The notes beneath the pieces were generated by a model. The model had not been told where the DNA came from, did no database searches, and saw only the letters and a program-made list of their open reading frames with translations. Position numbers and translations under genes: made by a program. From Gammaproteobacteria bacterium (GTDB taxonomy: Bacteria; Pseudomonadota; Gammaproteobacteria; 21-64-14), in the NCBI GenBank assembly GCA_027013145.1, contig JALUXX010000016.1, positions 22,983 through 86,982 on the forward strand: a stretch of DNA of 64,000 nt, in the 5' to 3' direction. Positions 2,083 to 21,275 of the stretch are shown piece after piece (the stretch's first letter is position 1; each line of letters opens with the position of its first letter).

Positions 2083-2514
2083 ACCTCCGGTGCGGACGTG
2101 CCGCTTACGCTGGAGTAAGTGCGCGGGTTTGTCAAGCAGCGCCCCTGGGGGTCTCCGACAGTGCATGCGGCGACGGTTCCGGGTGACCGGTCGCGCCGTT
2201 TTGAGCGCGCCCGTCGGTCGTGCGCGTTTCGGGTATCGCGCGCCGAGTTGTTGGAAAGCCCCGGCGCGCGAATCGATCACGCGGAGGGTCTATCCTCCGG
2301 ACCTGCGCCGGGCCTTCCTCCAGGTTGCGGTGGGGCGTGAACCGTTTGTGCAGGTCAGAACGATTTAACGAACGGTTTAGAAATCCAAACGGTTCGTGGA
2401 GCGGTCTGCAGGTAGACTGACGGTGCGGTCAATCGGGTCTCTGTGGCGCGCGCGGGGCGGAATATCAGGCGGCGTGGCTAAAGATTTATTGAAAGTAAAA
2501 GAAGTAGTTAAAAA

Positions 2515-2670
2515 ACTTAAACTGTAATTTATCGCAATCCTCTTCCACACTCCATCTCGACACCGAGTGCTGGTCTTCTTGTTCGATCCTCGACAGTACA
2601 TTCGGCGACTACCGGCATGAAATTAAATAATCATTTAAGTTTATATTTGTAAACTTAAACTGTTATTTAT
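2515..2670. promoter_or_regulatory. AT-rich cbbL upstream region with two copies of an 18-nt motif, ACTTAAACTGT(A/T)ATTTAT, at about 2515-2532 and 2653-2670; candidate LysR/CbbR operator and promoter region
   Basis: A sharp AT-rich island in otherwise ~68% GC DNA, 115 nt upstream of the cbbL start. The same TTAAACTGTATTTTAT core recurs in the cbbR-aldolase intergenic region at about 19847-19862. Confidence 0.35.
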
Positions 2671-2784
2671 TTTCAACCTCACCCAGACTGCATCCCCAGT
2701 TCGAAGGCCCTGGGCAGTCCGGATACGGGCACGAGGCCGCCGGGTGAACACGCAAATTTTGGCAACTCTAGGAGGACTCCTCAG

Positions 2785-4197: not shown

Positions 4198-4255
4198 GTG
4201 CTGCAGGACGGCCCTGACCGGTTCCGAACCGATTCCCCTTTAGGAGACGATCATC

Positions 4256-4600
4256 ATGCCAAGCACATTCGAGATGGGTGACTACCAGACTGCGCATACG
4301 CTGGAGACCTTCGGGTTTCTGCCGTCGATGTCGCAGGACGAGATTCATCAGCAGATCGCGTACATCATCGCCCAGGGGTGGACGCCGGCCATCGAGCACG
4401 AGCACCCCTCCCAGGCAGACAGCGACTACTGGACGATGTGGAAGCTGCCGTTCTTCGGTGAGACCAATCTGGGCAACGTCGTAAGCGAGCTCGAGGCCTG
4501 TCACCGGGCGTATCCGGATCACCACATCCGGCTGATCGGCTACGACAACTACACCCAGTCGCAGGGCCTGTCGTTCGTCGTCTTCGAAGGTCGCAACTGA
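4256..4600 (+). CDS. cbbS: RuBisCO small subunit
   Basis: 114 aa with the conserved small-subunit pattern (ETFGFLP, QIAYIIAQGW, MWKLPFFG). Immediately downstream of cbbL. Confidence 0.95.
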   Translation: MPSTFEMGDYQTAHTLETFGFLPSMSQDEIHQQIAYIIAQGWTPAIEHEHPSQADSDYWTMWKLPFFGETNLGNVVSELEACHRAYPDHHIRLIGYDNYTQSQGLSFVVFEGRN

Positions 4601-4641
4601 AACGGCGGGGAACGCGCATCATCGACACGGTGGGGTGAGCC

Positions 4642-6975: not shown

Positions 6976-7005
6976 GGCGGCTGAGCGACGGGTAGAGGCG
7001 AAGCG

Positions 7006-8514: not shown

Positions 8515-8783
8515 AGATCTGTCAGGTGGAGCGGCCGCTGGTGGCCACCAACCGGATCCCCGGCCTCGAGCATCGGCACCTGCAGGTGGTGCGGGACGGC
8601 GCCGCCCTGGCGGTGGCGGTCGATGCGGTGGGCTGCATTCCGGGTGACTGGGTGATTTGCGTGGGCAGTTCTGCCGCGCGCGAGGCGGCGGGCAGCAAGG
8701 AGTACCCGAGCGATCTCACGATCGTCGGAATCATCGACCACTGGCCGCCGGAATCGGCTCAGCCGCAAACGGCTCAGGAGTGA
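8511..8783 (+). CDS. csoS4A: Carboxysome vertex (pentamer) protein CsoS4A, EutN/CcmL family
   Basis: ~90 aa starting MKICQVERPLVATNRIPGLEH, the EutN/CcmL fold signature. Its ATG overlaps the csoSCA stop. Confidence 0.85.
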   Translation: MKICQVERPLVATNRIPGLEHRHLQVVRDGAALAVAVDAVGCIPGDWVICVGSSAAREAAGSKEYPSDLTIVGIIDHWPPESAQPQTAQE

Positions 8784-8793
8784 GGTGGGCGAC

Positions 8794-9105
8794 ATGGACA
8801 TCCTGGAAGTGGAAGCGCCGCTCGTATGCACGCGCCGGATCGCAGGACTGAAACAGACCAGCTTACGGGTATTGCGCGACGCCGCCGGTCGGCGCCACGT
8901 GGCGGTCGATCCGGTAGGCGCCCGCGAGGGCAATTGGGTGTTCACGGTGAGCGGTTCGGCGGCGCGGTACGCGACCGGCGATTTCGATGTCCTGACCGAT
9001 CTGACCATCGGGGGAATCATCGACTTCTGGAAACCGGTTGGGGCTGCGGCGGGCGATCGCGGCGATCCGGCAGCGACTGCGGGCGGCGATGCCCGCAACG
9101 GGTGA
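8794..9105 (+). CDS. csoS4B: Carboxysome vertex protein CsoS4B, EutN/CcmL family
   Basis: Paralog of CsoS4A (MDILEVEAPLVCTRRIAGLKQTSLRVL). The ATG is preceded by GAGGTG. Confidence 0.8.
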   Translation: MDILEVEAPLVCTRRIAGLKQTSLRVLRDAAGRRHVAVDPVGAREGNWVFTVSGSAARYATGDFDVLTDLTIGGIIDFWKPVGAAAGDRGDPAATAGGDARNG

Positions 9106-9153
9106 GGGGTAGGGCGTTAATCCTTTTTCAATCCTGACGACGGAGAGACGAAG

Positions 9154-9468
9154 ATGGCAAGCGAGAACTACGGTATTGCACTGGGCATGATCGAAACCCG
9201 CGGGTTGGTTCCCGCCATCGAGGCGGCGGACGCGATGACCAAGGCCGCCGAGGTGCGCCTGATCGGGCGCGAGTTCGTCGGCGGCGGATATGTCACCGTG
9301 CTGGTGCGCGGGGAGACCGGCGCGGTCAACGCGGCGGTGCGTGCCGGCGCCGATGCGTGCGAGCGTGTCGGAGACGGCCTGGTCGCCGCGCACATCATCG
9401 CGCGTCCGCACCGCGAGGTCGAGCCGATTCTGCCCCCGGGCGGAACCAAATCGGCTGCCGCGGCTTAA
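9154..9468 (+). CDS. csoS1: Carboxysome hexameric shell protein CsoS1 (BMC-H) with a short C-terminal extension
   Basis: Canonical BMC domain ([43 protein letters not shown]). Confidence 0.9.
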
Positions 9469-9510
9469 ACGGCGCGTCACTCAAGATTGATTCGACAGGA
9501 GATTCCAGCC

Positions 9511-9834
9511 ATGGCCAACGGTACCTATGGTATTGCGCTCGGCATGATCGAAACCCGCGGGCTGGTGCCCGCCATCGAGGCGGCGGACGCGATGACCAAG
9601 GCCGCCGAGGTGCGCCTGATCGCGCGCGAGTTCGTCGGCGGCGGATACGTCACCGTGATGGTGCGCGGGGAGACCGGCGCGGTCAACGCGGCGGTGCGTG
9701 CCGGCGCCGATGCGTGCGAGCGTGTCGGAGACGGCCTGGTCGCCGCGCACATCATCGCCCGCCCGCACCGGGAGGTCGAGCCGGTTCTGGGAGGCGAGGG
9801 TGCCATGGCGGGCAATCGGCCGGCGCGCAGCTGA
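9511..9834 (+). CDS. csoS1: Carboxysome hexameric shell protein CsoS1 (BMC-H), second copy
   Basis: Nearly identical BMC domain to the first copy. AGGAG RBS before ATG 9511. Confidence 0.9.
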   Translation: MANGTYGIALGMIETRGLVPAIEAADAMTKAAEVRLIAREFVGGGYVTVMVRGETGAVNAAVRAGADACERVGDGLVAAHIIARPHREVEPVLGGEGAMAGNRPARS

Positions 9835-9874
9835 CTGAGTGCCCGGGAATGGATCGACTGACGAGCCCGCCGTC

Positions 9875-10354
9875 ATGAACTCGCCGCAATCGGATCCGCG
9901 GATACTCGGGTATCTCGGCCGGGCGCTGAGTCTGGAGCTCAGCGCGGTCCAGCAGTACACCACCCAGGCCCGCCTCGCGGCGGCCTGGGGGCTGGCCCGG
10001 CCGGCGGAACGCCTGCGTACCGAGGCGATGGAGGAGATGGGGCACGTCGAGCGGGTGATCGCACGGATGTTGGCCCTCGGCGCTGCACCGAACGCATCGG
10101 TGCTCAGGCCGGTCGGTCTGGGCCGGGACCTGCGTGAGCTGCTACAGCAGGATCGGGCGCTGGAGGGCGAGTTGGTGCGCTTGTACACCGACGCCACCCG
10201 CTACTGCGTGAGTGGGGGCGATCACGACGGTCGCCTGTTTTTCGAAACGCTCCTCGAAGAGGAGCGGGAGCACGGACGCGAACTCGATCGCTGGCTGGAT
10301 TCGCTGCAACGCCCGGAAGCGGTTGCGGCCCAACCGGAGCGGGCGACGTTTTAG
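9875..10354 (+). CDS. Bacterioferritin/ferritin-like protein associated with the carboxysome operon
   Basis: Four-helix ferritin-like signature (LELSAVQQYTTQARL, EEMGHVERV, EEEREHGREL). A Bfr-like gene in this position is typical of cso operons. Confidence 0.7.
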   Translation: MNSPQSDPRILGYLGRALSLELSAVQQYTTQARLAAAWGLARPAERLRTEAMEEMGHVERVIARMLALGAAPNASVLRPVGLGRDLRELLQQDRALEGELVRLYTDATRYCVSGGDHDGRLFFETLLEEEREHGRELDRWLDSLQRPEAVAAQPERATF

Positions 10355-10408
10355 CCCCGGGAAGGCCGAGCGGCTTCGGGTGGAGCAAACGATTGGAGGG
10401 GACTCCTC

Positions 10409-10672
10409 ATGAGCGAGCACTGGCAGGAACGTGACCGGCCACCCCGGCTCGAGCGGCGTTACGGGTTTGCGGACTACTCCGCACTGCGTGACTTTCTCGA
10501 TCGGGCGGCGGCCTTGTCGGAGCGCGAGGGTTTCTATCCGGACATGGGCTTCGGGCGCGACTACGTGAACGTGACGATCCACGCGGAGGAAGGGGCCGGG
10601 GAGCTGAGTTCCGACCGGCGGCGCTTCGCCGAGGCGCTCGACAAGCTGCAGGCGCCGGCGCCGGTGGATTGA
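10409..10672 (+). CDS. Pterin-4a-carbinolamine dehydratase-like RuBisCO assembly factor (acRAF)
   Basis: 87 aa PCD/DCoH-like fold pattern (GFADYSALRDFLD, EGFYPDMGFGRDYVNVTIH). Conserved position downstream of bfr-like in alpha-carboxysome loci. GGAGGG RBS. Confidence 0.7.
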   Translation: MSEHWQERDRPPRLERRYGFADYSALRDFLDRAAALSEREGFYPDMGFGRDYVNVTIHAEEGAGELSSDRRRFAEALDKLQAPAPVD

Positions 10673-10679
10673 CCGGGAC

Positions 10680-11306
10680 ATGACGGTCATCGCGCTGGTA
10701 GGCAACAAGGGCGGCGCAGGGAAGACCACGATCGCCGTCAACCTCGCCAGCGCGCTGGCCCGGAACGGGTCCACTGCCGTATTCGACTCCGATCCGCAGG
10801 GTTCGGTGCTGCAGTGGCAGGCGATCGCGGGGCCGGATCGGGCGCCGATCGTCGTCGATACCGCCGACGGTCTGGAGGATGTGTTCGCGCGCAGCGCCCA
10901 CCGCTATGGGCACGTGATCATCGATTGCCCGCCCTCGGTCCACGCGACCCAAACTCATGTCGCCCTGGCGGTGAGCGAGGTCGCCCTGGTGCCGGTGCAG
11001 CCGTCCCCGCTGGATCTATGGGCCACGGTCCATATCGAGCATGCCATCGAGGCGGCGCGGCGTGTCAATCCGGGATTGAGGGCATTGCTGGTGATCAATC
11101 AACTCGAGTCGCGGACCACGCTGTCGCGGCTGATGCGCGACGCCCTGGCGGAGCTCGAGCTGCCGGCGGCGCGCACCGCCATCCGCAGACGTGCCGTCTA
11201 CCGGGCGAGCGTCCTCGAGGGGAAGAGCGTCCTGGACATGGGGCGGCGCGGCGCGGCCGCAGCCGCGGAGATTCGATCGCTGCTCAGCGAGGTGACGACA
11301 CCATGA
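10680..11306 (+). CDS. mcdA: ParA-family ATPase McdA (maintenance of carboxysome distribution)
   Basis: Deviant Walker A (GNKGGAGKTT) and ParA/MinD fold. Sits in the carboxysome operon, followed by a small disordered partner gene. Confidence 0.75.
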   Translation: MTVIALVGNKGGAGKTTIAVNLASALARNGSTAVFDSDPQGSVLQWQAIAGPDRAPIVVDTADGLEDVFARSAHRYGHVIIDCPPSVHATQTHVALAVSEVALVPVQPSPLDLWATVHIEHAIEAARRVNPGLRALLVINQLESRTTLSRLMRDALAELELPAARTAIRRRAVYRASVLEGKSVLDMGRRGAAAAAEIRSLLSEVTTP

Positions 11307-11533
11307 GTACTTCCGACAAGACCGGCCGGAAACTGGTCGATTCGCTGCGTAAGACGAAGGCCGCGGCCGCCGGCAAAGATACGGCATCGCCCGCGGAGGG
11401 AGAGGCCTCATCCGGGTCACCGGAGGGGGCGACGGGGGCGAAGGGGTCGAATCCGGCACGGCGTGCCGCCGCCCGGAGCGCGGGCGCAGCGGGCGATCCC
11501 TATCAAAGCGGCGGGCGGGTATGGCCGGATTGA
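11303..11533 (+). CDS. mcdB: McdB-like partner protein of McdA (small, disordered, conserved C-terminal Trp)
   Basis: 76 aa of low-complexity, basic/Ala/Gly-rich sequence ending GGRVWPD. Its ATG overlaps the mcdA stop. Alpha-type McdB proteins are short, disordered and carry an invariant C-terminal tryptophan. Confidence 0.5.
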   Translation: MSTSDKTGRKLVDSLRKTKAAAAGKDTASPAEGEASSGSPEGATGAKGSNPARRAAARSAGAAGDPYQSGGRVWPD

Positions 11534-11575
11534 GCCGATGCCGACCCGCGAGTCTGACCTGCTGATGGCGGAGCC

Positions 11576-13258
11576 ATGAAGGCGCTGGTCGTCGCCGTGG
11601 CGGCGGTGCCGTTCGCATCCGCGCTGCTGGTTCAGTTGTTCGGCGCGCGCCTGAGGCGGGGGGCGGCCCGCGTCAGTGTGGGCGCCGTTGCGCTTACCTT
11701 CGTCCTCGCCGCGGCAACGCTCGCCCTGGCGTTGGACGGTCACGCGCCCGCGCAATTCGCGCTGGCACGTCAGTGGGGGATACTTCTCTTCGACCCCCTG
11801 AGCACCTTGATGGCCGTGGTGATATCGGGAATCAGCCTCGTCGTCCATGTCTACTCGGTCCGCTATATGGCCGAAGAGCCCGGCTATGCGCGCTTCTTCG
11901 TCCTGTTGGACCTCATGACGGGCACGCTGCTGGTGATGGTGGCGGCCGGCGATCTGATCACGCTGCTGGCCGCTTGGCACCTGATCGGTGTGCTCCTCTA
12001 TTTCCTGCTCGGACACGATGCCCGCAGCCGCGCGGCCCACCGCTACGCGTCGTGGACCCTGATCACCTACCGGCTTGGCGATTTGCCGCTGGTGCTCGCG
12101 GCCGGCCTGCTCTATCACGCGTACGGAACGTGGTCGTTGCCGAAGATCTTCGCCGCGATCGGCACCGATCCGCGCGCCCACGCCGTTCTGGGCGTACCGT
12201 TGCCGGAGGTCGTGGCGGCCCTCGTCGCGCTCGCCGCGTTCGCGCGTTCCGCCCAGTTCCTCCTCCATACCTGGCTCCCCTACACGATGTCGGGCCCGAC
12301 CCCGGTTTCGGCCCTGATGCATGCGGGGATCGTGAATGCGGGGGGGTTCCTGATCAACCGGTTCGCACCCGTGTTCGTTCACACGGCCGACGTACTGCCC
12401 GGCGTCTTCATCGTCGGGTTGATCACCGCGCTGATCGGGTCGAGCCTCATGCTGACCCAGAACGACATCAAAAAGTCGCTGGGCTACTCCACCATGGGGC
12501 AGATGGGCTTCATGATCATGGAGTGCGGCGTGGGCGCCTTCGCGCTGGCCATCTTTCATCTGATATCACACGGTCTGTTCAAGGGGACCTTGTTTCTGGG
12601 TGCGGGAGGGGTCATCCATTCGGCCCGCGAAGACGACGGGGTGCCCAAAGACGATCTCTACACCTTCGTCGTCGAGAAGCGCCCGGCCAATCAACGCCGA
12701 CCCTGGATCCTGATGGCGGCGATCACTCTCGCCGTTCCGGTGGTGATCCTGATGGCGGCGCACTTCCTCGTGTCCCAGGATTATTTCCAGGAGCAGGGCG
12801 CGATCGTGCTCCTGTTTTTCGGCTGGATCACGGGAGCGCAGTTGATATTCGCGACCTACCGCATGCGCGCGCAGAACTTCTGGCGGCTGGTGGTGCTGAG
12901 CGTCTTCTCGTTTGCGATCGTGATCGTCGGCTATACGCTGATCAGCCACGCCTTCGATCTCTTCCTGTATCCGGACGCGTCGTTCCGGCGCGGACTGTTC
13001 GCCGCGGCCGATATCGGTGCCGTGAGATTCGACGCCCTGGTCGGCCTCGTGACCGTTTCCATCGTCGCCGGCTGGGTGTTCACCTACTACTCCGAGCAGG
13101 GGAGGGGGCGGCGCCGGGAGGTCCGGGCGGGGCGTTGGTGGTCGACCCTGTACGCCCTCGGCTCCCGGGAATTTTTTTTGACCGACTTGTATACGCGCCT
13201 GGCGCGGGCGCTCGAGGCTGCGGCTACACGGCTCAACGTATGGTTGAGGTGGGTCTGA
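11576..13258 (+). CDS. dabB: DabB, the NuoL/MrpA-like proton-pumping membrane subunit of a DAB inorganic-carbon accumulation complex
   Basis: 560 aa with ~14 TM helices and complex I antiporter-like motifs (WHLIGVLLYFLLGH, THAGIVNAGGFL, LISHGLFKGTLFLGAG). Followed by a DUF2309 (DabA) gene. Confidence 0.75.
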   Translation: MKALVVAVAAVPFASALLVQLFGARLRRGAARVSVGAVALTFVLAAATLALALDGHAPAQFALARQWGILLFDPLSTLMAVVISGISLVVHVYSVRYMAEEPGYARFFVLLDLMTGTLLVMVAAGDLITLLAAWHLIGVLLYFLLGHDARSRAAHRYASWTLITYRLGDLPLVLAAGLLYHAYGTWSLPKIFAAIGTDPRAHAVLGVPLPEVVAALVALAAFARSAQFLLHTWLPYTMSGPTPVSALMHAGIVNAGGFLINRFAPVFVHTADVLPGVFIVGLITALIGSSLMLTQNDIKKSLGYSTMGQMGFMIMECGVGAFALAIFHLISHGLFKGTLFLGAGGVIHSAREDDGVPKDDLYTFVVEKRPANQRRPWILMAAITLAVPVVILMAAHFLVSQDYFQEQGAIVLLFFGWITGAQLIFATYRMRAQNFWRLVVLSVFSFAIVIVGYTLISHAFDLFLYPDASFRRGLFAAADIGAVRFDALVGLVTVSIVAGWVFTYYSEQGRGRRREVRAGRWWSTLYALGSREFFLTDLYTRLARALEAAATRLNVWLRWV

Positions 13259-13259
13259 T

Positions 13260-14024
13260 ATGGGTACGCCGGGTCTTTGGAGCGTCGCGATCTTTCTGCC
13301 GCTCTTTCCGCTGAGCGTGATCTTCAATGCGCTGTTCGCCCGGGTCGGCAATGCGCCGATGCGGGCGATTATCCTGCTCGCATGGCCGCAGGTCGGACTC
13401 GTCCTGTTCGGAATTTTGCCGCCCGGGCGGGTAGCCGGGGGGGTGGTCGCGTTGGCGGTGCTGGGGTCGCTCCTCTACGCGTTCCGCGCGATCGCGCTGC
13501 GGGATGTGGACCGCTGGACCGGCTACATCGCGACTTCCGCATGGGCGCTGTTGTGGCCGGCTCTCGCACATCACGCAGCGATCGACACCCTGCGGCTCTA
13601 CGCGTTGGGTTTCAGCGTTCCACTGGCGCTGTTGGTACTGGTGGCCGACGCACTGAAGCGGCGCTTCGGGGCCGCGTACGCCGGACTCTATGGCGGAACC
13701 GTGCGGATGCTTCCGAGGCTGGCCGGCGCGACGGCGCTGGTGGTGCTGGCGGCGGTCGCGGTGCCGTTGTTTCCGGGCTTCTTCGCGCTGGTGGCGGTCA
13801 TGGTTACGACGATTCCGGAGCAGCCGTGGCTCGCGGTGTGCGTCGGGCTCACGTGGCTGCTTTGGACCTGGGGCGGAATCCGGCTGCTGCAGGGATTGAT
13901 CGTGGGTCCGGGTGAGGCGGTTGCGCCGGTCGCGGATCTGAGTCGCGTCGAGTTCGGATTCTACGTCCTGACGCTCGCCCTGCTGATTGCCGGTGCGTTG
14001 CGGCTGCCGGGGGTGACGGCATGA
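13260..14024 (+). CDS. Hypothetical polytopic membrane protein encoded between dabB and dabA
   Basis: 254 aa with ~7 predicted TM segments and high GC3. Translationally coupled: it starts 2 nt after the dabB stop and overlaps the dabA start by 4 nt. No motif I can assign. Confidence 0.5.
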   Translation: MGTPGLWSVAIFLPLFPLSVIFNALFARVGNAPMRAIILLAWPQVGLVLFGILPPGRVAGGVVALAVLGSLLYAFRAIALRDVDRWTGYIATSAWALLWPALAHHAAIDTLRLYALGFSVPLALLVLVADALKRRFGAAYAGLYGGTVRMLPRLAGATALVVLAAVAVPLFPGFFALVAVMVTTIPEQPWLAVCVGLTWLLWTWGGIRLLQGLIVGPGEAVAPVADLSRVEFGFYVLTLALLIAGALRLPGVTA

Positions 14025-17000
14025 GTCTGAGGCTCGGGCAGACGCTGAAGATCCGCGCCATGGCCTACGTCGCGGGCGAGCCGATCCCGTTCTTCTGGCC
14101 GATGCGTTCCTTCATTCATCACAATCCGCTCCATGGCCTCGAACACCATCCGTTTCCGGAGGCGGTGGCGCGCGGTGAGCGGCTCTTTCAGGCCCGCGGC
14201 TTCCTTCCGCGGAGCGGATATCAACGGTATCTGCGCCTCGGCAAGGTCGACCGGGCGGCGCTCGGCGCCGGGGTGGAGGCCTTCCTGGCGCAACGGGAGG
14301 CGGTGGCGGGGATCGATCTTCCCAAGTGGATTCTTGCGCTGATGACGCGCATGGATCGGCCGGTCGTCGCGGGGAGCGGACTCGCCCGTGAGGCCGACGT
14401 CGTGGTCGCCCTGCGGGGCGGTCCCATCCGCGGGACGGTTCCGGGAGCGGATCATGTGCGCGCGCGTCTGCGCGAGGAGCTGCTGGATTCGCGCCCGGTC
14501 TACGAGGCGGTCGACCTCCTGTTCGGTACCGGGGTCGGCGCGGAACTGGACGAACTGGTGATCAAAAGCTGCCTCGATTTCTTCGACGAGGGTCAGTCGG
14601 TGTGGTCGATGCCGGGGCGCGAGCGGGGATTTTTCGCCGCCTGGCGGGAGATTGCGCGGCGCAGCGGGCGTCTGTACCTGCGCGGACTCCACATCGGGCG
14701 CATCCTGCGCGACGAGGAGGGCCCGGAGGCGGTGATCGTACGCGTCATGGAGACGCTCGGCGTGGGCGAGGGGCGGTGGACGACCTACTTCACCCGCGAG
14801 CTGGCGCGTCTTCACGGCTGGGCCGGCTTCATCCGGTGGCGGTCGGGCGCAAGGCACTATTACTGGGCGCAGCGCTATCCGGCCGATCTCGTGGATTTCC
14901 TCGCTGTGCGACTGGCGCTCGGGCTCGCGCTGCTCGGCGAGCGGGCCCGGACCGGGCCCACGACGGAGCCGGAACTGGAGCGGTTCATCGAGGACCGGTG
15001 GCGCGAGGCGTATCTGCGTCACGAGCTGTTTTCCGGGGCGGTGCTGCCGGCGATGGCGGCCCGGGTGGAACGTACCCTCGCGGCCGGACGGCCCGCACGG
15101 ATCGAGCGGCTCTACGAGGAGTATGTTGCCGCGAAGCGGGCCGAGGAGGCACGCGATCAGGCCGAGCGTCTTCAGGTTCTTGCCGCAATGAGTGATGGGC
15201 AGGAGGCGCTCTCGCGCTTGTCCGCCGAAGACCTGGGGCGCCTAGTCGGGATCCTGAGAGACTTCGAGCGCGGCGAAGGGATGATCTGGTTGAACGCCAT
15301 GGAGAATCGCGCCGTCGAGCGCCTGCTCGGGGGCATCCGGCCCGGCGCCCCACCGGCCGACGGGAAGCGGCCGTTCGCCCAGGCGCTGTTTTGTATCGAC
15401 ACGCGGTCGGAGCGCATCCGGCGTCACCTTGAGGGCGTCGGGGACTACGAGACCTACGGCATCGCGGGATTTTTCGGCGTTCCCGTCAGTTTCATGGAGC
15501 TGGGCAAAGGCAGCGAAGTGCATCTCTGCCCGGTTCTGCTCACGCCGAAGAACCTGGTAATGGAAATCGCGGTCGCCCAAGGCAACGACGACGTTACGGC
15601 GCTCACCGTGTTGGAGAAGGCTTTCCACGAACTGAAGGAATCGGTCCTGAGTCCGTTCGTGACCGTCGAGGCGATCGGCCTGCTCTTCGGTTTCGATATG
15701 GTAGGCAAGACCCTGCTGCCCGAGCGCTACAACCGCTGGCGCAAGCGGTTGCACCAGCGCAAGCCGCGCACCCATCTGCTGCTGGACAAGCTCAGCCGCG
15801 AGCAGGCCGATTCCGTTATCCGCGCGGTGCAGCGCGCCGTGATTGCGAAGGCGATTGCGCAGGAGTTCGGCCTGGAGGCCGAGCAGATCCACGATGCCGT
15901 GGTTCGCGAGCTGCGCGAGGTCGCGATGGGGCATGCCCAGGGGGCCCCGAAGCTGGCGGCGATGCTGGGGCTGGACGCTACGTCCGAACAGGCGTTCATC
16001 GGCCGGCTGCGGACCGTATACCGCATCAATCCATCCGTGGTGCGGCTCCAGATGGAGCGACTGGGTCGGCTCGGCTTCAGCCTCGACGAGCAGGTGGTCT
16101 TCGTCGCCCAGGCCCTCAAGGCCATCGGTCTGACGGAGAACTTCTCGCGATTCGTGTTGCTGGTAGGGCACGGCAGTACGTCGGAGAACAATCCCTACGA
16201 GTCCGCGCTCGACTGCGGCGCCTGCGGCGGGAATCAGGGACTGGTGAACGCCAGGGTCCTCGCCCAGATGGCGAACAAGCCGGCCGTGCGGCGTAGGCTG
16301 CGCGAGCAGGGGATCGATATTCCGGAGGACACTTGGTTCTTCCCGGCGCTGCACGATACCACGACCGACGAGTTGCGGCTGTTCGACCTCGACCGGGTGC
16401 CCGCCTCCCATGTCGTGTACATGGATCGGCTGCGCAAAGGGTTGCTCGCCGCATCCAGACTGTGCACGCAGGAGCGGATGCCGACGCTGCTGCCGTCGCC
16501 CGCCTCCCTCTCTCCGGCGGCCGCGTCGCGATATGCGGCACGCAACGCGCTCGATTGGTCCCAGGTGCGCCCGGAATGGGGGCTTGCGGGCAACGCATAC
16601 TTCATCATCGGCCGTCGTGCGTTGACGCAATCGTTCGCGCTCGAGGGGCGCGCGTTTCTGCATTCCTACGACTACCGTATCGATCCGAAGCGGCGGCTGC
16701 TGGAGACCATCCTGACCGGGCCCCTGGTGGTCGGCCAGTGGATCAACATGGAGCATTATTTTTCCACCGTGGACAATGAACGCTTCGGCAGCGGCAGCAA
16801 GGCCTACCACAACGTGGCCGGCCGCTTCGGGGTGATGACCGGGAATCTGAGCGATCTGCGCACCGGGCTCCCGGCTCAGACGGTGCTCGATCGCGGGTTC
16901 CCGTATCACGAGCCGCTGCGACTGATTACGGTGATCGAGGCCCCGTTCGATCACGCTTGGCGCGCCGTGGAGGAGGTATCCGTGGTCAAGTATCTCGTGC

Positions 17001-17137
17001 GAAACGGCTGGATTCGCCTGTTGATCGTGGATCCGGAGCGCCATTGCGTCGACGTGTACGAGGACGCGGCCTGGAGCCGGCGGCCGTTCCCGGGGACCGT
17101 TCAGTCGCAGCCGGCCGAGGAGTCCGTGCCATCATGA
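14021..17137 (+). CDS. dabA: DabA (DUF2309), the beta-carbonic-anhydrase-like catalytic subunit of the DAB inorganic-carbon pump
   Basis: 1038 aa, the size and composition of DabA/DUF2309. Contains a C-x-D-x-R-type motif (FCIDTRSERIRRHLE) and a later His/Cys motif resembling beta-CA zinc ligands. Paired with a NuoL-like gene. Confidence 0.75.
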   Translation: MSLRLGQTLKIRAMAYVAGEPIPFFWPMRSFIHHNPLHGLEHHPFPEAVARGERLFQARGFLPRSGYQRYLRLGKVDRAALGAGVEAFLAQREAVAGIDLPKWILALMTRMDRPVVAGSGLAREADVVVALRGGPIRGTVPGADHVRARLREELLDSRPVYEAVDLLFGTGVGAELDELVIKSCLDFFDEGQSVWSMPGRERGFFAAWREIARRSGRLYLRGLHIGRILRDEEGPEAVIVRVMETLGVGEGRWTTYFTRELARLHGWAGFIRWRSGARHYYWAQRYPADLVDFLAVRLALGLALLGERARTGPTTEPELERFIEDRWREAYLRHELFSGAVLPAMAARVERTLAAGRPARIERLYEEYVAAKRAEEARDQAERLQVLAAMSDGQEALSRLSAEDLGRLVGILRDFERGEGMIWLNAMENRAVERLLGGIRPGAPPADGKRPFAQALFCIDTRSERIRRHLEGVGDYETYGIAGFFGVPVSFMELGKGSEVHLCPVLLTPKNLVMEIAVAQGNDDVTALTVLEKAFHELKESVLSPFVTVEAIGLLFGFDMVGKTLLPERYNRWRKRLHQRKPRTHLLLDKLSREQADSVIRAVQRAVIAKAIAQEFGLEAEQIHDAVVRELREVAMGHAQGAPKLAAMLGLDATSEQAFIGRLRTVYRINPSVVRLQMERLGRLGFSLDEQVVFVAQALKAIGLTENFSRFVLLVGHGSTSENNPYESALDCGACGGNQGLVNARVLAQMANKPAVRRRLREQGIDIPEDTWFFPALHDTTTDELRLFDLDRVPASHVVYMDRLRKGLLAASRLCTQERMPTLLPSPASLSPAAASRYAARNALDWSQVRPEWGLAGNAYFIIGRRALTQSFALEGRAFLHSYDYRIDPKRRLLETILTGPLVVGQWINMEHYFSTVDNERFGSGSKAYHNVAGRFGVMTGNLSDLRTGLPAQTVLDRGFPYHEPLRLITVIEAPFDHAWRAVEEVSVVKYLVRNGWIRLLIVDPERHCVDVYEDAAWSRRPFPGTVQSQPAEESVPS

Positions 17138-17460
17138 AGAACCTGAACCTGAGCCCCCTCAAGAAGCTGGAAATCATCCTCGGCGGCGAACACCAGGCGT
17201 TCGCCACCGACGTTCTGGATCGCGCCGGCGTCAAAGGCTATACGATCGTCAACAACCTTTCGGGAAAAGGCAGTCATGGCTTTCACGAGGGACACCTCAT
17301 GTTCAATGAGGACGATGTCCTGATCATGATCATTGCGGCCGTCCCGGCGGATCTGGTCACTGCGATCCTCGAGGGGCTCGCGCCCTTTTACAACGAGCAT
17401 TCCGGAGTGGTGTTCATTTCGGACATTCAGGTGACCCGGTTGGTGAAATTCAGCGGTTGA
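17134..17460 (+). CDS. PII-like signalling protein, carboxysome-associated CPII type
   Basis: 108 aa with the GlnB-like fold pattern (KLEIILGGEHQAFATDVLDRAGVKGYTIV...GKGSHG). Its ATG overlaps the dabA stop. CPII proteins are encoded next to carbon-transporter genes in cso loci. Confidence 0.7.
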   Translation: MKNLNLSPLKKLEIILGGEHQAFATDVLDRAGVKGYTIVNNLSGKGSHGFHEGHLMFNEDDVLIMIIAAVPADLVTAILEGLAPFYNEHSGVVFISDIQVTRLVKFSG

Positions 17461-17602
17461 GCGCCGGGCGTGCATCGTGCCCCGCGAGCAGCCCCGAGCG
17501 GCGGTAGTACAGTGACACGACCCTTCGGGCGCCGGCCCTGCGAGCGGGGCGGCGGCCGGACGACTGCGGCCCGAGGTGCGGAGGCACCAACCCTGCGCGA
17601 CC

Positions 17603-18217
17603 ATGATTCAGCTACGTACATACGTCTACATCGACTCTCTGCAGCCGCAGCTCGCTGAGTATATGGCGACCGTATCGCAGGGGTTTCTGCCCGTTCCGGG
17701 CGACGCGTGCCTGTGGGTGGAGGTCTCTCCGGGCATGGCGATTCACCGGTTGACGGACATCGCCTTGAAGGCGACGCGGGTCAATCTGGCGCAGCAGGTG
17801 GTGGAGCGGGCGTACGGATCGATGGTGATCCATCATCGCGACCAGAGCGACGTCCAGGAAGCCGGTAGGGTCATCCTGCATCACCTCGGCGCGTCGGTGG
17901 AGGACCGCCAGCACTGCGATATCGCCTGGCAGGAAGTGATCCGGGGGATGACCCCCGATCACACCGTGCTCATCAACCGGCAGAACCGCCGCGGTTCGAT
18001 GATGCTTCCGGAGCAGAGTATGTTCATCCTGGAGACGGAGCCCGCCGGGTACGTCGTCTATGCGGCGAATCAGGCGGAGAAGGCGGCCAACATCACCCTG
18101 ATCGACGTACGCGCGGTCGGCGCCTACGGGCGCCTGACGCTGTCGGGGCACGAGGCGGATGTGGACGAGGCCGCGGCCGCGGCGATCGCGGCGGTGCAAC
18201 GTCCCTCGGGGACCTGA
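17603..18217 (+). CDS. Putative tandem-BMC-domain shell protein (CsoS1D-like, BMC-T)
   Basis: Two degenerate BMC-like segments ([26 protein letters not shown] and [28 protein letters not shown]). The position after CPII matches csoS1D in other alpha-carboxysome loci. The alternative start at 17576 is not excluded. Confidence 0.5.
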
Positions 18218-18220
18218 GCC

Positions 18221-18826
18221 GTGCACCGTCGCCGCCTGCTCGATCTGCTGTCCGCGCATCGCACGCCGTTTCTGGAGGAGGCGGCCTACGTCCGACGCGC
18301 CCGGGAGTTCATTTCCGCCCACCCGGGTTGCTTCGGCTGTGACTATTGGCCGGCGCACGTCACCGGCTCCTCGTGGGTGCTCAATCCGCGGCGCTCGCAC
18401 GTGCTGCTGGTGCATCACCGAAAGCACGGGCGCTGGTTTCAGCCGGGTGGGCACGCGGACGGGAATCCGGATATCCTCGCCGTCGCGCTGCGGGAGACCG
18501 CGGAGGAAAGCGGTGTCGCACCCGGCGCGATCCGGCTGCTGGACGAGCGCATCTTCGATCTGGACATCCACCGGATCCCGGCGAGCGTGCGCGGTCCGGC
18601 GCACGAGCACATCGATGTGCGTTTTCTGGTCGAGATCGACGACGGCGTCCCGCTGCGGGGCAGCGAGGAATCCTACGAGGTACGCTGGGTCCCGCTGCAC
18701 GAGGTCAGTCGCTACAACAACAATCGCTCGACGTTCCGCATGGTGGAGAAGACGCGACGACGGCGCGCGGCGGCGGCCAGCGGCGGGTTGCTGAACGGTG
18801 TTCGCGGCGGATCGGAGTTCGCCTGA
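18221..18826 (+). CDS. NUDIX hydrolase
   Basis: NUDIX box (GGHADGNPDILAVALRETAEESGV). GTG start. Confidence 0.7.
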   Translation: MHRRRLLDLLSAHRTPFLEEAAYVRRAREFISAHPGCFGCDYWPAHVTGSSWVLNPRRSHVLLVHHRKHGRWFQPGGHADGNPDILAVALRETAEESGVAPGAIRLLDERIFDLDIHRIPASVRGPAHEHIDVRFLVEIDDGVPLRGSEESYEVRWVPLHEVSRYNNNRSTFRMVEKTRRRRAAAASGGLLNGVRGGSEFA

Positions 18827-18876: not shown

Positions 18877-19797
18877 TCAGGCCGTCGCGGCCGCGTTTCC
18901 GCTCGCATGGCGGGACATCAGGAACTCCTTGAACGCCTGGGCGGCGGGCGAGAGCACCTTGTGATCCGGATAGACGAGGTACCACTGGCGTTCCAGCGGG
19001 AGGCCCTGAACGTCGAGTAATGCGAGGTCGCCGCGCGCCAGCTCGGCTTCGGCGGTGATCTTCGCGAGGATGGAGATCCCGAGCTTGCTCGACACGGTCT
19101 GCTTGATCGCCTCGTTGCTTCCGAGTTCCATGCGTGTGCGCGGCGCCGTTCCGTGACGCTGGAAGAAGGCCTCGCAGCCGAGGCGGGTCCCGGAGCCGCG
19201 CTCGCGCGCGATGAACGGCTCTTCGGCCAGCCGCTGCGGTGTGATCGATTTTTCGCGCGTCAGCGGGTGATCCGGGTGGGCGATGGCGACCATGGGGTTG
19301 GGCGCGAACGGGATGGCGACGACGTTCAGGTTGTCAGGGGGCTGACCGAGGACGTAGAGGTCGTCCTGGTTTTGCACCAGGCGTTCGAGCATCGCCTTGC
19401 GGTTGCCGACGAACAGGGATACCTCGATGCCGGGGTGTTGCGCGCTCAATTGCCCGAGGAGTTGCGGGATGAAGTATTTGGCGGTGGTCAGGATGGAGAC
19501 GCTGAGTGTGCCGCTCTCCAGGCCCTGTATGGCCGCGAGCTCCTGGGCGAGACGCTCCATCCGCGCGGCCACGTCGCGGCAGGCGGAGGCCATGACCTTG
19601 CCGGCCTGGGTGAGGTAGAGGCGCTTTCCGACCTGCTCGACCAGTGGCTGGCCGGCGGCTTCGGCGAGTTGCTTGACCTGGATCGAGACGGCGGGCGGCG
19701 TCAGGTGAAGCGCTTCGGCCGTGCGCGTGATGCTCATATGCCGCGCAAGGGCGTCGAAGATTCGCAACTGATGCAGGGTCGCGCGTCGGATGGACAT
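18877..19797 (-). CDS. cbbR: LysR-family transcriptional regulator, CbbR-like
   Basis: N-terminal HTH (LHQLRIFDALARHMSITRTAEALHLTPPAVSIQVKQLAE) and a LysR substrate-binding domain with the CbbR-like segment ELGSNEAIKQTVSSKLGISIL. Divergent from the aldolase gene. Confidence 0.6.
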   Translation of the reverse strand: MSIRRATLHQLRIFDALARHMSITRTAEALHLTPPAVSIQVKQLAEAAGQPLVEQVGKRLYLTQAGKVMASACRDVAARMERLAQELAAIQGLESGTLSVSILTTAKYFIPQLLGQLSAQHPGIEVSLFVGNRKAMLERLVQNQDDLYVLGQPPDNLNVVAIPFAPNPMVAIAHPDHPLTREKSITPQRLAEEPFIARERGSGTRLGCEAFFQRHGTAPRTRMELGSNEAIKQTVSSKLGISILAKITAEAELARGDLALLDVQGLPLERQWYLVYPDHKVLSPAAQAFKEFLMSRHASGNAAATA

Positions 19798-19846
19798 AGG
19801 TCCCTTGGAACTCTTTAAGAATTATTTAAACAAGAATTAATAAAAT

Positions 19847-19862
19847 TAAACTGTATTTTATC
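19847..19862. promoter_or_regulatory. TTAAACTGTATTTTAT motif in the AT-rich cbbR/aldolase divergent intergenic region; candidate CbbR operator
   Basis: Same core as the two cbbL-upstream motifs. Lies 65 nt upstream of the cbbR start on the opposite strand. Confidence 0.3.
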
Positions 19863-20060
19863 ACTGACCACCCATAAACTGCAACTTGTCCCGGGTCATC
19901 CTCCCCAGTCCGCCCGCGGGACGCCGCCCGCTTCCGTGCCTCGGGTCCACTCGTGGTGCGCGACGACAGCCGCGTCGCTGGGACGTGGCTTGGCGGTCTT
20001 TGGGGGCGACCCGAGGGTCGGGGTGCGAGCCGTGCGAGGCAGACGGCCAGGAGCGGTGTG

Positions 20061-21275
20061 ATGTCGTTGGTTGCGATGCGGGATCTGCTGGAACACGCCT
20101 ACCGGCACAACTACGCCGTGGGGGCCTTCGATCTATGCGGCCTGGAGTTCCTCGACGGCGTGATCGCCGCGGCCGAGCGTTGTCGTGCGCCGGTGATCCT
20201 CAATCTCGACCAGCCGCGGTGTGGCGCTTCCGATTTCGATCGCTTGCTGCCCGCCGCGGAGGCGGCGGCCCGGCAGGCCGTCGTTCCGGTCGCGATCCAT
20301 CTGGATCGCGGGGCGGACATCGAGGCTGCCGTGCATGCCGTCAACCGCGGCTGCAACGGCGTGATGGTCGACGCTTCGGATCGCGAGCTGGGAGATAACA
20401 TCCGGATCACCCGGGAAGTCGTGTCCATGGCGCAGGGATGCGGCGTTGCGGTCGAGGGCAAACTCGGCGGTGTCGATGGTGTCGACGGCGCCGGCGAAGT
20501 CGTCTATACCGGCGTCGCCGAGGCGCGCGCCTATGTCGAGCGTACCGGAGTGGATTTTCTGGCGGTGTCGATCGGTGCCGATACCGGGCGCTCCCGCAGC
20601 AGGCCCCGCCTCAACTGGCAGCGGCTCAAGCAGATCAACGAGACTCTCCGCATCCCCCTGGTCATCCACGGTGGGGACGGAATCTCCGACGACCAGTTTC
20701 GCCGGCTGATCGCCAACGGCGTGGCCAAGATCCACCACCCGACCGTACTCGTCGACGCCGCCGGAGAGCGGCTGCGCGCGGGCGCGAGGAAGGGTGCCGG
20801 GGCGGACTACCGTGCGGTGATGCGCGAGGTCCGCAAGGGCGTGGAGCAGGAGGCCGAGTGTTACATGCGGTTGTGGGGGGGCGCGGGACGCGCCGCCGAA
20901 GTTCTGGAGCAATGCCGCGGTTGGGAGCCCGTCGAACACGCGGTCTTCCACGGTCGCGATGGGCTCGGCGAAGAGGAGGTCGCGGTGGTGATCGAGGAGG
21001 GCCGGCGTGCGTTCAGCGCCATCCCGGGCGTGCGCGCGGTGCGTACCGGAGAGGTGGTGCAGACCGACCGGCGCTTCGGTTGGCTGTTGAGCGTCTGCCA
21101 CCCGGCGGTCATCGGCGCCTATCGTGAACATCCGTCTTATGTCGCGTTCGCGCGCACGCGCGCGGAGCGCCTCTCCAGTCTTCCGTCGGTGGCGGACGAT
21201 GCCGCTCCCCACCGCCCGCGGCCGGCCGCGCGGGCGCAGGAGGCGGCGTCCGTCGCCTGGTCGCGCGGGCGCTGA
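20061..21275 (+). CDS. Class II fructose/ketose-bisphosphate aldolase (CbbA-like) fused to a C-terminal Dabb (stress-responsive alpha+beta barrel) domain
   Basis: N-terminal ~290 aa match the class II aldolase pattern (MSLVAMRDLLEHAYRHNYAVGAFD, VAIHLDRG, IHGGDGISDDQF). C-terminal ~100 aa match Dabb (EHAVFHGRDGLGEEEVAVVIEEGRRAFSAIPGV...HPAVIGAYREHPSYVAFA). One uninterrupted ORF. Confidence 0.75.
   Translation: MSLVAMRDLLEHAYRHNYAVGAFDLCGLEFLDGVIAAAERCRAPVILNLDQPRCGASDFDRLLPAAEAAARQAVVPVAIHLDRGADIEAAVHAVNRGCNGVMVDASDRELGDNIRITREVVSMAQGCGVAVEGKLGGVDGVDGAGEVVYTGVAEARAYVERTGVDFLAVSIGADTGRSRSRPRLNWQRLKQINETLRIPLVIHGGDGISDDQFRRLIANGVAKIHHPTVLVDAAGERLRAGARKGAGADYRAVMREVRKGVEQEAECYMRLWGGAGRAAEVLEQCRGWEPVEHAVFHGRDGLGEEEVAVVIEEGRRAFSAIPGVRAVRTGEVVQTDRRFGWLLSVCHPAVIGAYREHPSYVAFARTRAERLSSLPSVADDAAPHRPRPAARAQEAASVAWSRGR

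What the first reader, a model, noticed from the sequence alone, without database searches (positions are those of the whole stretch)
19847..21275. Class II bisphosphate aldolase fused to a Dabb stress-barrel domain, divergent from cbbR and sharing a TTAAACTGT-WW-TTTAT motif with the cbbL promoter region
The aldolase gene (20061-21275) is one ORF encoding ~290 aa of class II FBP/SBP-aldolase-like sequence plus a ~100-aa Dabb (dimeric alpha+beta barrel, stress-responsive) domain, an unusual fusion for a Calvin-cycle aldolase.

It is transcribed divergently from the CbbR-like regulator across a 260-bp AT-rich spacer containing TTAAACTGTATTTTAT. Two copies of the same core (ACTTAAACTGTAATTTAT and ACTTAAACTGTTATTTAT) sit 115 and 255 nt upstream of cbbL, 17 kb away.

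This argues that one LysR regulator coordinates carboxysome and aldolase expression through a shared operator.

The same TAAACTGT core also forms part of the 3' terminus (AGTAAACTGTCCCCG) of both island boundary elements.
Basis: seen in the sequence. Interest (0 to 1): 0.5.

Follow-up and report, generated by a model that had tools for sequence, protein, structure and literature searches.

The report
Carboxysome-regulon promoter box and pseudo-aldolase
A conserved promoter box, probably the binding site of the neighbouring CbbR-type regulator, links the carboxysome operon to a gene that looks like a sugar-bisphosphate aldolase but has lost its zinc-binding catalytic residues, so it is probably a non-catalytic new component of the CO2-concentrating system, not a Calvin-cycle enzyme.

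Summary
The ORF at 20061-21275 encodes a class II aldolase barrel plus a Dabb domain. It is divergent from a CbbR-like LysR gene. TTAAACTGTWWTTTAT occurs exactly three times in 64 kb (0 expected): twice upstream of cbbL and once in the lysR-aldolase spacer.

Each copy lies 13 nt upstream of a -10-like hexamer, at the end of a ~55-bp AT-rich patch. The extended box (AACTTAAACTGTAATTTATCAC-N10-TAGACT) is conserved in these positions in relatives whose aldolase is only 55% identical. It is absent where a different CbbR paralog is present. Co-regulation is therefore well supported. That the LysR protein binds the box is inferred.

The fusion is not unusual. There are hundreds of homologs, and it was already listed as cbbA in the Acidithiobacillus ferrooxidans cbb1 operon.

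The new point is that the window's copy belongs to a monophyletic subclade that always sits beside this LysR gene at carboxysome/DAB loci. This subclade has replaced residues that are invariant in 147 canonical homologs (Zn ligands H83, H175, E134), shortened the catalytic loop and lost the last Dabb strand. It keeps the phosphate-binding loop and evolves under purifying selection (dN/dS ~0.2). It is most likely a pseudoenzyme of unknown non-catalytic role.

The resemblance to the island termini is a chance 8-mer.

The parts
18877..19797 (-). CbbR-type LysR-family regulator gene (306 aa), divergent from the aldolase-like gene
   Evidence: Pfam HTH_1 plus LysR_substrate. The best NCBIfam hit is CbbR NF045990, at 279.6 bits, below the cutoff of 450. 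It is 60-63% identical to Acidithiobacillus, Ferrovum and Thiomonas regulators, some named Rubisco-operon or low-CO2-responsive regulator. dN/dS is 0.03-0.08.
19805..19864 (+). AT-rich operator-like patch ending in promoter box C (AAATTAAACTGTATTTTATCAC, 19843-19864), which overlaps the -35 region of the aldolase-like gene's promoter and abuts the lysR start codon
   Evidence: Orthologous spacers in 9 lineages keep the box and ~11-bp-phased TTAAA units.
19875..19880 (+). -10-like hexamer TAAACT (TAGACT in most relatives), 10 nt after the 22-mer box
   Evidence: Read directly from the sequence. The position is conserved in all aligned relatives. The simple sigma-70 consensus scan did not call a promoter here, which is consistent with a weak -35.
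19881..20060 (+). GC-rich 5' leader (~170-180 nt) of the aldolase-like gene, with no known RNA family
   Evidence: Rfam found nothing meaningful. The alignment of leaders gave only a weak consensus structure, -5.6 kcal/mol with a covariation term of about 0.
20061..20915 (+). Class II aldolase-like TIM-barrel domain (residues 1-285) with a degenerate active site: HLDH to HLDR (R83), VEGELG to VEGKLG (K134), GTVHG to GADTG (T175), KIN to KIH (H225). The catalytic loop is shortened from 20 to 14 residues.
20922..21185 (+). Dabb (dimeric alpha/beta barrel) domain (residues ~288-375) lacking the last beta-strand, followed by a disordered tail up to 21275
2478..2535 (+). AT-rich patch ending in promoter box A (AACTTAAACTGTAATTTATCGC, 2514-2535), with a -10-like CACACT at 2546-2551. 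This is the distal cbbL promoter.
   Evidence: A tandem pair is also present upstream of cbbL in L014.
2617..2673 (+). AT-rich patch ending in promoter box B (AACTTAAACTGTTATTTATTTT, 2652-2673), with a -10-like CAGACT at 2684-2689. A weaker inverted copy of the box lies at 2620-2641 (-). This is the proximal cbbL promoter.
2785..18826 (+). Presumed co-regulated CO2-concentrating cluster: cbbL, cbbS, csoS2, csoSCA, csoS4AB, csoS1 x2, ferritin-like, ParA-like, dabB, a 254-aa ORF, dabA, P-II, csoS1D, NUDIX
   Evidence: The same gene order is found in L001, L002, L005/L014 and L097.

Best explanation
The finding has two linked parts.

(1) A set of activator-dependent promoters.
- A conserved 22-bp box (consensus AACTTAAACTGTAATTTATCAC) has an imperfect dyad, TAAAcT-gt-AaTTTA, which fits TNA-N8-TNA.
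- The box covers the -35 region, 10 nt upstream of a -10-like TAGACT/TAAACT hexamer.
- It closes a ~55-bp AT-rich stretch that carries roughly helically phased TTAAA units.
- There are three such promoters: two in tandem before cbbL, and one in the lysR/aldolase-like spacer.
- Inferred mechanism: the adjacent CbbR-type LysR regulator binds these stretches as LTTRs do, with a recognition site upstream and an activation site over -35. It would activate the carboxysome/DAB cluster and the aldolase-like gene together, presumably when inorganic carbon is scarce, and repress its own overlapping divergent promoter.

(2) The regulated gene is not a working Calvin-cycle aldolase.
- It belongs to a monophyletic offshoot of the widespread aldolase-Dabb ('CbbA-Dabb') family.
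- This offshoot has lost zinc ligands, the catalytic loop and the final Dabb strand.
- It keeps the TIM barrel and the phosphate-binding loop, and it is under purifying selection.
- It is therefore most likely a pseudoenzyme with a non-catalytic job in the CO2-concentrating regulon.
- My preferred guess is a sugar-bisphosphate-binding partner or sensor protein, analogous to the non-catalytic GatZ/KbaZ partners of class II aldolases.

Shown: motif conservation and positions, residue losses, clade-context correlation, and selection. Inferred: LysR binding, CO2 responsiveness, lack of catalysis, and the protein's actual role.
For: Cis-element:
- 3 hits against 0 expected.
- A PWM scan finds no further box in the window or in 8 related loci.
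- The same box plus -10 occurs in the lysR-aldolase spacer of L001, L002, L005, L019, L024, L025, L031, L056 and L063. It also occurs twice upstream of cbbL in L014, which is on the same contig as L005. The surrounding leaders have diverged.
- The box is absent from cbbR-cbbL spacers that have a 45%-identical CbbR paralog, and from L060, which lacks LysR.
- LysR is CbbR-like.
- A. ferrooxidans CbbR binds TNA-N7/8-TNA and T-N11-A sites that overlap the promoters of the homologous cbb1 carboxysome operon (PMC2942843).
- The A. sulfuriphilus cbbR-cbbL1 spacer has similar geometry.

Protein:
- D82, H83, E134, H175, H203 and N225 are 100% invariant in 147 canonical fusion homologs. Most are replaced, variably, in the 24 degenerate ones; H83 is kept in 21 of these but is Arg in the window subclade.
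- G204-G205-[ST]-G207, T228, K223, D104, S106 and E132 are retained.
- The degenerate proteins form one clade.
- In total, 10 of 10 loci with the DabA/P-II/CsoS1D/NUDIX/LysR context are degenerate, and 0 of 67 canonical proteins are in that context.
- dN/dS is 0.18-0.25, against 0.02-0.08 for the LysR, purE, CsoS1D and P-II neighbours and a comparable 0.15-0.23 for the NUDIX gene.
- The protein scores below all curated aldolase cutoffs, whereas canonical P0013 passes TIGR00167.
- The model is confident, with the barrel intact.
Against: - No binding, transcript or enzyme data exist.
- The most conserved element sits over -35 rather than at the -65 position expected for the high-affinity LTTR recognition site, so another factor cannot be excluded.
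- The dyad is T-N12-A (equivalently TNA-N8-TNA), not the classical T-N11-A.
- The whole-genome distribution of the box could not be tested. The genome-contig scan returned only 4 chance hits in unrelated taxa.
- Arg83 and Lys134 placed where Zn2+ would sit could in principle support a metal-independent chemistry.
- The sister subclade gains an HxHH cluster that might bind a metal differently.
- No partner aldolase is encoded in the window, and the proposed binding role has no direct support.
Confidence: 0.6

Rival explanations
1. The gene encodes a catalytically active FBP/SBP aldolase of the Calvin cycle, fused to a Dabb domain, and is co-regulated with Rubisco.
Against: Zn ligands H83 and H175, and Glu134, are replaced. 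The catalytic loop is shortened from 20 to 14 residues. N225 is replaced. These positions are invariant in 147 canonical homologs but variable within the degenerate clade, which indicates relaxed constraint rather than a new catalytic set. The protein is below all curated NCBIfam cutoffs.
Confidence: 0.08
2. The box is a promoter element read by something other than the neighbouring LysR protein, for example another CCM regulator (Crp/Fnr type) or a specialised sigma factor. LysR adjacency would then be incidental.
For: The strongest conservation is at -41 to -20 plus the -10, which is the promoter core itself. The simple sigma-70 scan finds no canonical promoter. In Halothiobacillus, several regulators, including a Crp/Fnr type, give high-CO2-requiring phenotypes.
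Against: The box co-occurs strictly with this LysR ortholog and is replaced by a different box where a paralogous CbbR is present. The arrangement is the classical divergent LTTR one, with a ~55-bp AT-rich stretch of LTTR-footprint size. It has the TNA-N8-TNA form accepted for CbbR sites. There is no TGTGA-N6-TCACA or TTGAT-N4-ATCAA symmetry (read directly from the sequence).
Confidence: 0.2
3. The aldolase-like gene is a decaying relic of an ancestral cbbA-Dabb, with no remaining function.
For: It has lost catalytic residues and the last Dabb strand. It evolves 3-8 times faster than the LysR, purE, CsoS1D and P-II neighbours, at a rate similar to the NUDIX gene.
Against: The ORF is intact and full-length in at least 24 divergent lineages. 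dN/dS is 0.18-0.25 even at saturating dS. Barrel-wide conservation equals that of canonical enzymes (mean entropy 0.78 vs 0.82). It has a dedicated, highly conserved promoter. Clade-specific conserved residues are present: E29, G111, W186, E262, A274.
Confidence: 0.05

Closest known systems
cbbA (AFE_1676 / ACK80290.1), last gene of the Acidithiobacillus ferrooxidans cbb1 carboxysome operon, together with CbbR control of that operon (PMC2942843)
   Same: Same two-domain architecture (Pfam01116+Pfam07876), located at the end of an alpha-carboxysome/Rubisco cluster. A CbbR-type LTTR (about 60-63% identical to the window's regulator in Acidithiobacillus spp.) binds AT-rich TNA-N7/8-TNA sites that overlap the promoters.
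   Different: In A. ferrooxidans the gene is co-transcribed behind cbbQ1-cbbO1, and cbbR is divergent from cbbL1. In the window, the regulator sits at the far end of the cluster, divergent from the aldolase-like gene, which has its own promoter. There are no cbbQO genes (DAB, P-II, CsoS1D and NUDIX are present instead), and the catalytic residues are lost. I could not inspect the A. ferrooxidans sequence for its residues.
Canonical aldolase-Dabb fusion proteins of uncultured Gammaproteobacteria (e.g. P0013, P0068)
   Same: 55-60% identity over both domains, with the same length and fold.
   Different: Canonical members keep H-D-H-E-H-H-N and the RISIDY last strand. They are found after cbbL-cbbS-104aa-cbbQ-cbbO-130aa, or in housekeeping contexts (Bax1-I, HPF, rhodanese). 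None of them is beside this LysR gene.
[not shown]
   Same: A class II aldolase-fold protein without aldolase activity of its own, retained for a supporting role.
   Different: GatZ/KbaZ are a distant, larger family encoded next to their catalytic partner. Here, no catalytic partner gene is adjacent, and a Dabb domain is attached. This is a functional analogy only.
CbbR/CmpR/CcmR LTTR operators of Rubisco and CCM genes
   Same: Divergent regulator-target arrangement, an AT-rich ~55-bp operator that overlaps a weak -35, and multiple promoters sharing one box.
   Different: The specific 22-bp box and its tandem duplication upstream of cbbL have not, to my knowledge, been described. The dyad spacing is N8/N12 rather than N7/N11.

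Membership tests
Class II fructose/ketose-bisphosphate aldolase (PF01116) | Sequence and fold of the class II aldolase TIM barrel | tested here: met
   [not shown]
Class II fructose/ketose-bisphosphate aldolase (PF01116) | Three His zinc ligands plus the Glu ligand (E. coli H110, H226, H264, E174) | tested here: not met
   The window protein has R83, T175, H203 and K134, so only one of the four is kept. The ligand set is taken from PMC5346313.
Class II fructose/ketose-bisphosphate aldolase (PF01116) | Mobile catalytic loop and substrate-binding Asn (KIN motif) | tested here: not met
   The loop at 136-150 is 14 residues, against 20 in 146 of 147 canonical homologs. N225 is replaced by H.
Class II fructose/ketose-bisphosphate aldolase (PF01116) | Curated whole-protein score cutoffs of aldolase equivalogs and subfamilies | tested here: not met
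   Best score 206 bits against a cutoff of 406. TIGR00167 cbbA scores 171.1, below 215.6. Canonical P0013 passes that model at 237.9.
Class II fructose/ketose-bisphosphate aldolase (PF01116) | Aldol cleavage of FBP/SBP/TBP | not testable with these tools
   Requires an enzyme assay and metal analysis.
Dabb / stress-responsive dimeric alpha-beta barrel (PF07876) | Sequence membership | tested here: inconclusive
   The single-sequence Pfam score is 19.9 bits, below the cutoff of 25. However, homologs carry PF07876, and the family profile hits Dabb structures: 3bde at 3e-8, OAC, and At3g17210.
Dabb / stress-responsive dimeric alpha-beta barrel (PF07876) | Complete beta-alpha-beta-beta-alpha-beta ferredoxin-like fold | tested here: not met
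   The model shows E291-298, H304-319, E324-328, E338-345 and H348-372, then disorder. The RISIDY last strand is absent in the whole degenerate clade.
LysR-type regulator, CbbR subgroup | N-terminal HTH_1 plus LysR substrate-binding domain | tested here: met
   Pfam E values of 1.7e-18 and 1.6e-56.
LysR-type regulator, CbbR subgroup | CbbR equivalog score | tested here: not met
   NF045990 is the best hit, but at 279.6 bits against a cutoff of 450. That model is Rhodobacter-centred.
LysR-type regulator, CbbR subgroup | Divergent target gene, with an operator of TNA-N7/8-TNA or T-N11-A type overlapping the promoters | tested here: met
   The arrangement is divergent. The box contains TAA-N8-TTA (TAAACTGTAATTTA), read directly from the sequence. 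The consensus definition is from PMC2942843.
LysR-type regulator, CbbR subgroup | Protein binds the box and activates transcription | not testable with these tools
   Requires EMSA, footprinting or DAP-seq, and reporter assays.
Sigma-70 promoter | -35 and -10 hexamers near consensus | tested here: not met
   The consensus scan finds none in 19700-20200. Only a -10-like TAAACT/TAGACT with a poor -35 (CTGTAA) is present, as expected for an activator-dependent promoter (inference).
GatZ/KbaZ-type non-catalytic aldolase partner | Encoded next to, and complexed with, a catalytic class II aldolase | tested here: not met
   No second aldolase gene is adjacent in the window or in the related loci. Complex formation is not testable here.

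The most novel reading that the evidence does not exclude
The degenerate aldolase-Dabb protein is a previously unrecognised component of the proteobacterial CO2-concentrating mechanism. It would be a catalytically dead sugar-bisphosphate (FBP/SBP/RuBP-type) binding protein, induced together with carboxysomes. It would either report Calvin-cycle metabolite status to the neighbouring CbbR-type regulator, or modulate Rubisco, aldolase or carboxysome function by binding.
Probability: 0.25. Interest if true: 0.75.

Novelty: new variant of a known kind. Interest (0 to 1): 0.5.

Why it matters
Alpha-carboxysome loci of chemoautotrophs still contain conserved genes of unknown role, and CCM regulation outside cyanobacteria is poorly mapped.

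This work gives two things:
- A precise, testable operator/promoter box (AACTTAAACTGTAATTTATCAC-N10-TAGACT) for a CbbR-type regulator of carboxysome/DAB loci.
- A conserved, co-regulated pseudo-aldolase that automatic annotation calls 'fructose-bisphosphate aldolase'. Metabolic reconstructions would therefore wrongly count it as a Calvin-cycle enzyme.

If the protein binds sugar bisphosphates without turning them over, it could be a metabolite sensor or buffer that links Calvin-cycle status to CCM expression.

Tried and rejected
- Genome-wide motif test. A genome-contig scan with TTAAACTGTN{2,3}TTTAT-N16-ACTSCA returned only 4 hits, in unrelated taxa (Woesearchaeota, Hymenobacter, Clostridium, Segetibacter). 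That is about the number expected by chance. The source genome and its relatives are not in that collection, so the regulon size remains untested.
- Regulatory RNA in the long leader. There is no Rfam family. RNAalifold on 7 leaders gave -5.6 kcal/mol with no covariation support. I dropped this idea.
- Literature on the fusion. Searches combining Dabb, aldolase, carboxysome, cbbQ and NUDIX found only the A. ferrooxidans gene table. No functional study was found.
- A. ferrivorans CbbR locus. The contig ends 154 bp upstream of the gene, inside cbbL, so I used A. sulfuriphilus instead.
- CsoS2 homolog contigs L015 and L016 were too short to show the cbbL upstream region.
- Link between the promoter box and the island termini. 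I rejected this: the termini share only TAAACTGT, embedded in the inverted repeat GGGGACAGT/ACTGTCCCC.
- Assembly artefact or recent fusion. I rejected this because of the hundreds of full-length fused homologs.
Full report
SETTING. The window is a 68% GC gammaproteobacterial sequence that carries an alpha-carboxysome/DAB locus. The genes are:
- cbbL 2785-4197, cbbS, csoS2, csoSCA, csoS4AB, two csoS1
- a ferritin-like gene and a ParA-like gene
- dabB, a 254-aa ORF, and dabA 14021-17137
- P-II, csoS1D, and NUDIX 18221-18826
- a LysR gene on the minus strand (18877-19797)
- the aldolase-like gene (20061-21275), followed by purE and purK

The same gene order is found in:
- a near-identical metagenomic contig (L097)
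- a relative whose aldolase-like protein is 87% identical (L001)
- 'Chromatiales bacterium 21-64-14' (L002-L004, aldolase 69% identical)
- a 453-kb contig whose aldolase is only ~55% identical (L005/L014)

OBSERVATION. TTAAACTGTWWTTTAT occurs three times (2517, 2655, 19846, all on the + strand), even when two mismatches are allowed. Shuffles give zero. These sites lie in the only three extended AT-rich patches in the first 33 kb of the window. The similarity goes beyond the 16-mer: each copy is followed, after exactly 13 nt, by CACACT, CAGACT or TAAACT. A PWM built from 12 sites finds only these three strong sites in the window, plus a weaker inverted copy at 2620-2641. Only the first ~65-80 bp of the 263-bp spacer is AT-rich.

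THE CIS-ELEMENT IS CONSERVED AND TRACKS THE REGULATOR.
- In nine independent lineages the lysR-aldolase spacer keeps AACTTAAACT[G/T/A]TAATTTATCAC-N10-TAGACT, while the downstream leader diverges freely.
- In the one distant genome where the cbbL upstream region could be recovered, two tandem copies with their own TAGACT again precede cbbL (L014).
- Operons of the type cbbR-cbbL-cbbS-cbbQ-cbbO, whose CbbR is only ~45% identical, carry a different conserved box. A locus without LysR (L060) lacks the box.
- The box has an imperfect dyad (TAAAcT-gt-AaTTTA, i.e. TNA-N8-TNA). It covers about -41 to -20 of a promoter that has a recognisable -10 but a poor -35 (one search finds no consensus promoter).
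- Upstream of it are TTAAA units spaced about 11-12 bp apart.
- This is the footprint-sized, promoter-overlapping layout described for CbbR at the homologous A. ferrooxidans cbb1 operon (PMC2942843). The A. sulfuriphilus cbbR-cbbL1 spacer has similar geometry.
- The regulator's best family match is CbbR, although below the curated cutoff. Its nearest named relatives are Acidithiobacillus, Ferrovum and Thiomonas Rubisco-operon or low-CO2 regulators.
- Co-regulation through a shared element is therefore well supported. LysR as the binding protein is an inference.

THE FUSION IS COMMON AND ALREADY RECORDED. All top 120 homologs are ~400 aa, and most carry PF01116+PF07876. JGI metagenomes hold at least 500 relatives. 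A profile of the C-terminal domain hits solved Dabb proteins. The A. ferrooxidans cbb1 operon ends with cbbQ1-cbbO1-cbbA, and that cbbA is listed with Pfam01116 and Pfam07876. I found no functional study of it.

THE WINDOW'S COPY IS A DEGENERATE PARALOG.
- Alignment with solved aldolases shows HLDH changed to HLDR, VEGELG to VEGKLG, GT(A/V)HG to GADTG, and KIN to KIH.
- The three His and the Glu are the strictly conserved zinc ligands of class II aldolases (PMC5346313). Only one of the four survives here.
- Across 183 non-redundant fusion proteins, D82, H83, E134, H175, H203 and N225 are invariant in 147 canonical sequences. Most of them are replaced by varying residues in 24 degenerate ones; H83 itself is kept in 21 of the 24 and is Arg only in the window subclade.
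- The window subclade has the signature H-D-R-K-T-H-H. The sister subclade has H-H-H-x-R-Y-x.
- The catalytic loop is cut from 20 to 14 residues in the window protein.
- The last Dabb strand (RISIDY) is missing in the whole degenerate clade. The AF2 model (pLDDT 86.8) shows an intact barrel, a beta-alpha-beta-beta-alpha C-domain, and a disordered tail.
- The phosphate loop G204-G205-[ST]-G207, and T228, K223, D104, S106 and E132, are retained.
- The protein scores below every curated aldolase cutoff, whereas a canonical homolog passes TIGR00167.

CLADE, CONTEXT AND SELECTION.
- In a neighbour-joining tree the degenerate proteins form one clade, sister to the canonical fusions, with one outlier (P0029).
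- Context correlates perfectly with type. All 10 loci with the DabA/P-II/CsoS1D/NUDIX/LysR context carry degenerate proteins. All 67 canonical proteins lie elsewhere: 13 behind cbbL-cbbS-104aa-cbbQ-cbbO-130aa and 54 in other contexts, often next to Bax1-I, HPF and rhodanese genes. The three degenerate proteins without visible context are on contigs shorter than 2.7 kb.
- dN/dS is 0.18-0.25 against three orthologs. That indicates purifying selection, but a rate 3-8 times faster than LysR, purE, CsoS1D or P-II, and similar to the NUDIX gene.
- Barrel-wide conservation within the degenerate clade equals that of the canonical clade. A few residues are newly fixed: E29, G111, W186, E262, A274.
- Together these results argue against both an active enzyme and a dead relic. 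They favour a retained non-catalytic function.

MECHANISM PROPOSED. The CbbR-type regulator occupies the AT-rich operators. At low inorganic carbon it activates the two cbbL promoters and the aldolase-like promoter, while it autoregulates its own overlapping promoter. The product is a zinc-less aldolase-fold protein that may still bind phosphorylated sugars and act as a partner or sensor. The nearest functional analogy is GatZ/KbaZ (my own knowledge), but it fails the membership test of an adjacent catalytic partner. This last step is speculative.

LIMITS.
- The whole-genome distribution of the box is untested (one search gave only chance hits).
- There are no experimental data.
- Arg83 and Lys134, or the HxHH cluster of the sister clade, could support unexpected chemistry.

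ISLAND TERMINI. The TAAACTGT at 33829 and 60472 lies within the conserved end of a duplicated ~140-bp element. That element has the terminal inverted repeats GGGGACAGT/ACTGTCCCC, and the second copy abuts tRNA-Arg(CCT). It has no relation to the promoter box.

Noticed in passing
window 33700-33842 and 60348-60484: Two ~140-bp repeats (81% column identity) with conserved ends TTCGGGGACAGTGTAC ... AGTAAACTGTCCCCG, forming the terminal inverted repeat GGGGACAGT/ACTGTCCCC. They bracket a ~26.6-kb stretch of patchy lower GC that ends at tRNA-Arg(CCT) 60496-60572 (-). The stretch encodes a sigma-54 activator (44137-46152) and an AAA/BTAD regulator (40715-44092).
   Followed up: partly
window 1864-2073 (-): A 69-aa ORF divergent from cbbL across the ~700-bp promoter region. 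It is 83% identical in the distant relative L014 (3498-3701, -) and has no Pfam family. It is a conserved small protein of unknown role next to the tandem promoters.
   Followed up: partly
window 13260-14024 (+): A 254-aa ORF between dabB and dabA with no Pfam hit and only weak NuoM-like similarity. It is conserved in every related carboxysome/DAB locus and may be a third DAB subunit.
   Followed up: no
window 2620-2641 (-): A weaker inverted copy of the promoter box (AACTTAAATGATTATTTAATTT, PWM score 21 against 40-49 for the main sites), 10 bp upstream of box B. With box B it forms a head-to-head pair with centres about 32 bp apart.
   Followed up: partly
window 19881-20060 and orthologous leaders (L005, L019, L024, L025, L031, L056, L063): A long (140-230 nt) GC-rich 5' leader, with a short conserved hairpin (CCYGAC...GTCGGG) just after the predicted start and a possible long-range pairing next to the Shine-Dalgarno sequence. 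There is no Rfam match and no convincing covariation.
   Followed up: partly
L070, L079, L083, L084, L088 (aldolase-Dabb genes at the end of cbbLSQO operons): A third active-site variant, Q-D-H-E-Q-H-N (H80Q and Zn-ligand H175Q), occurs in five Rubisco-operon copies. Erosion of the metal site is therefore not confined to the LysR-adjacent clade.
   Followed up: no
L007 259-573 and 3900-4292, and equivalents in L023, L047, L070, L071, L075, L079, L088: Two conserved ORFs without any Pfam family (about 104 aa after cbbS, and about 130 aa between cbbO and the aldolase-Dabb gene) in cbbR-cbbL-cbbS-cbbQ-cbbO operons.
   Followed up: no
window 18221-18826 (+): A NUDIX hydrolase gene is a fixed last member of the carboxysome/DAB cluster in all relatives. 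It evolves about as fast as the pseudo-aldolase (dN/dS 0.15-0.23).
   Followed up: no
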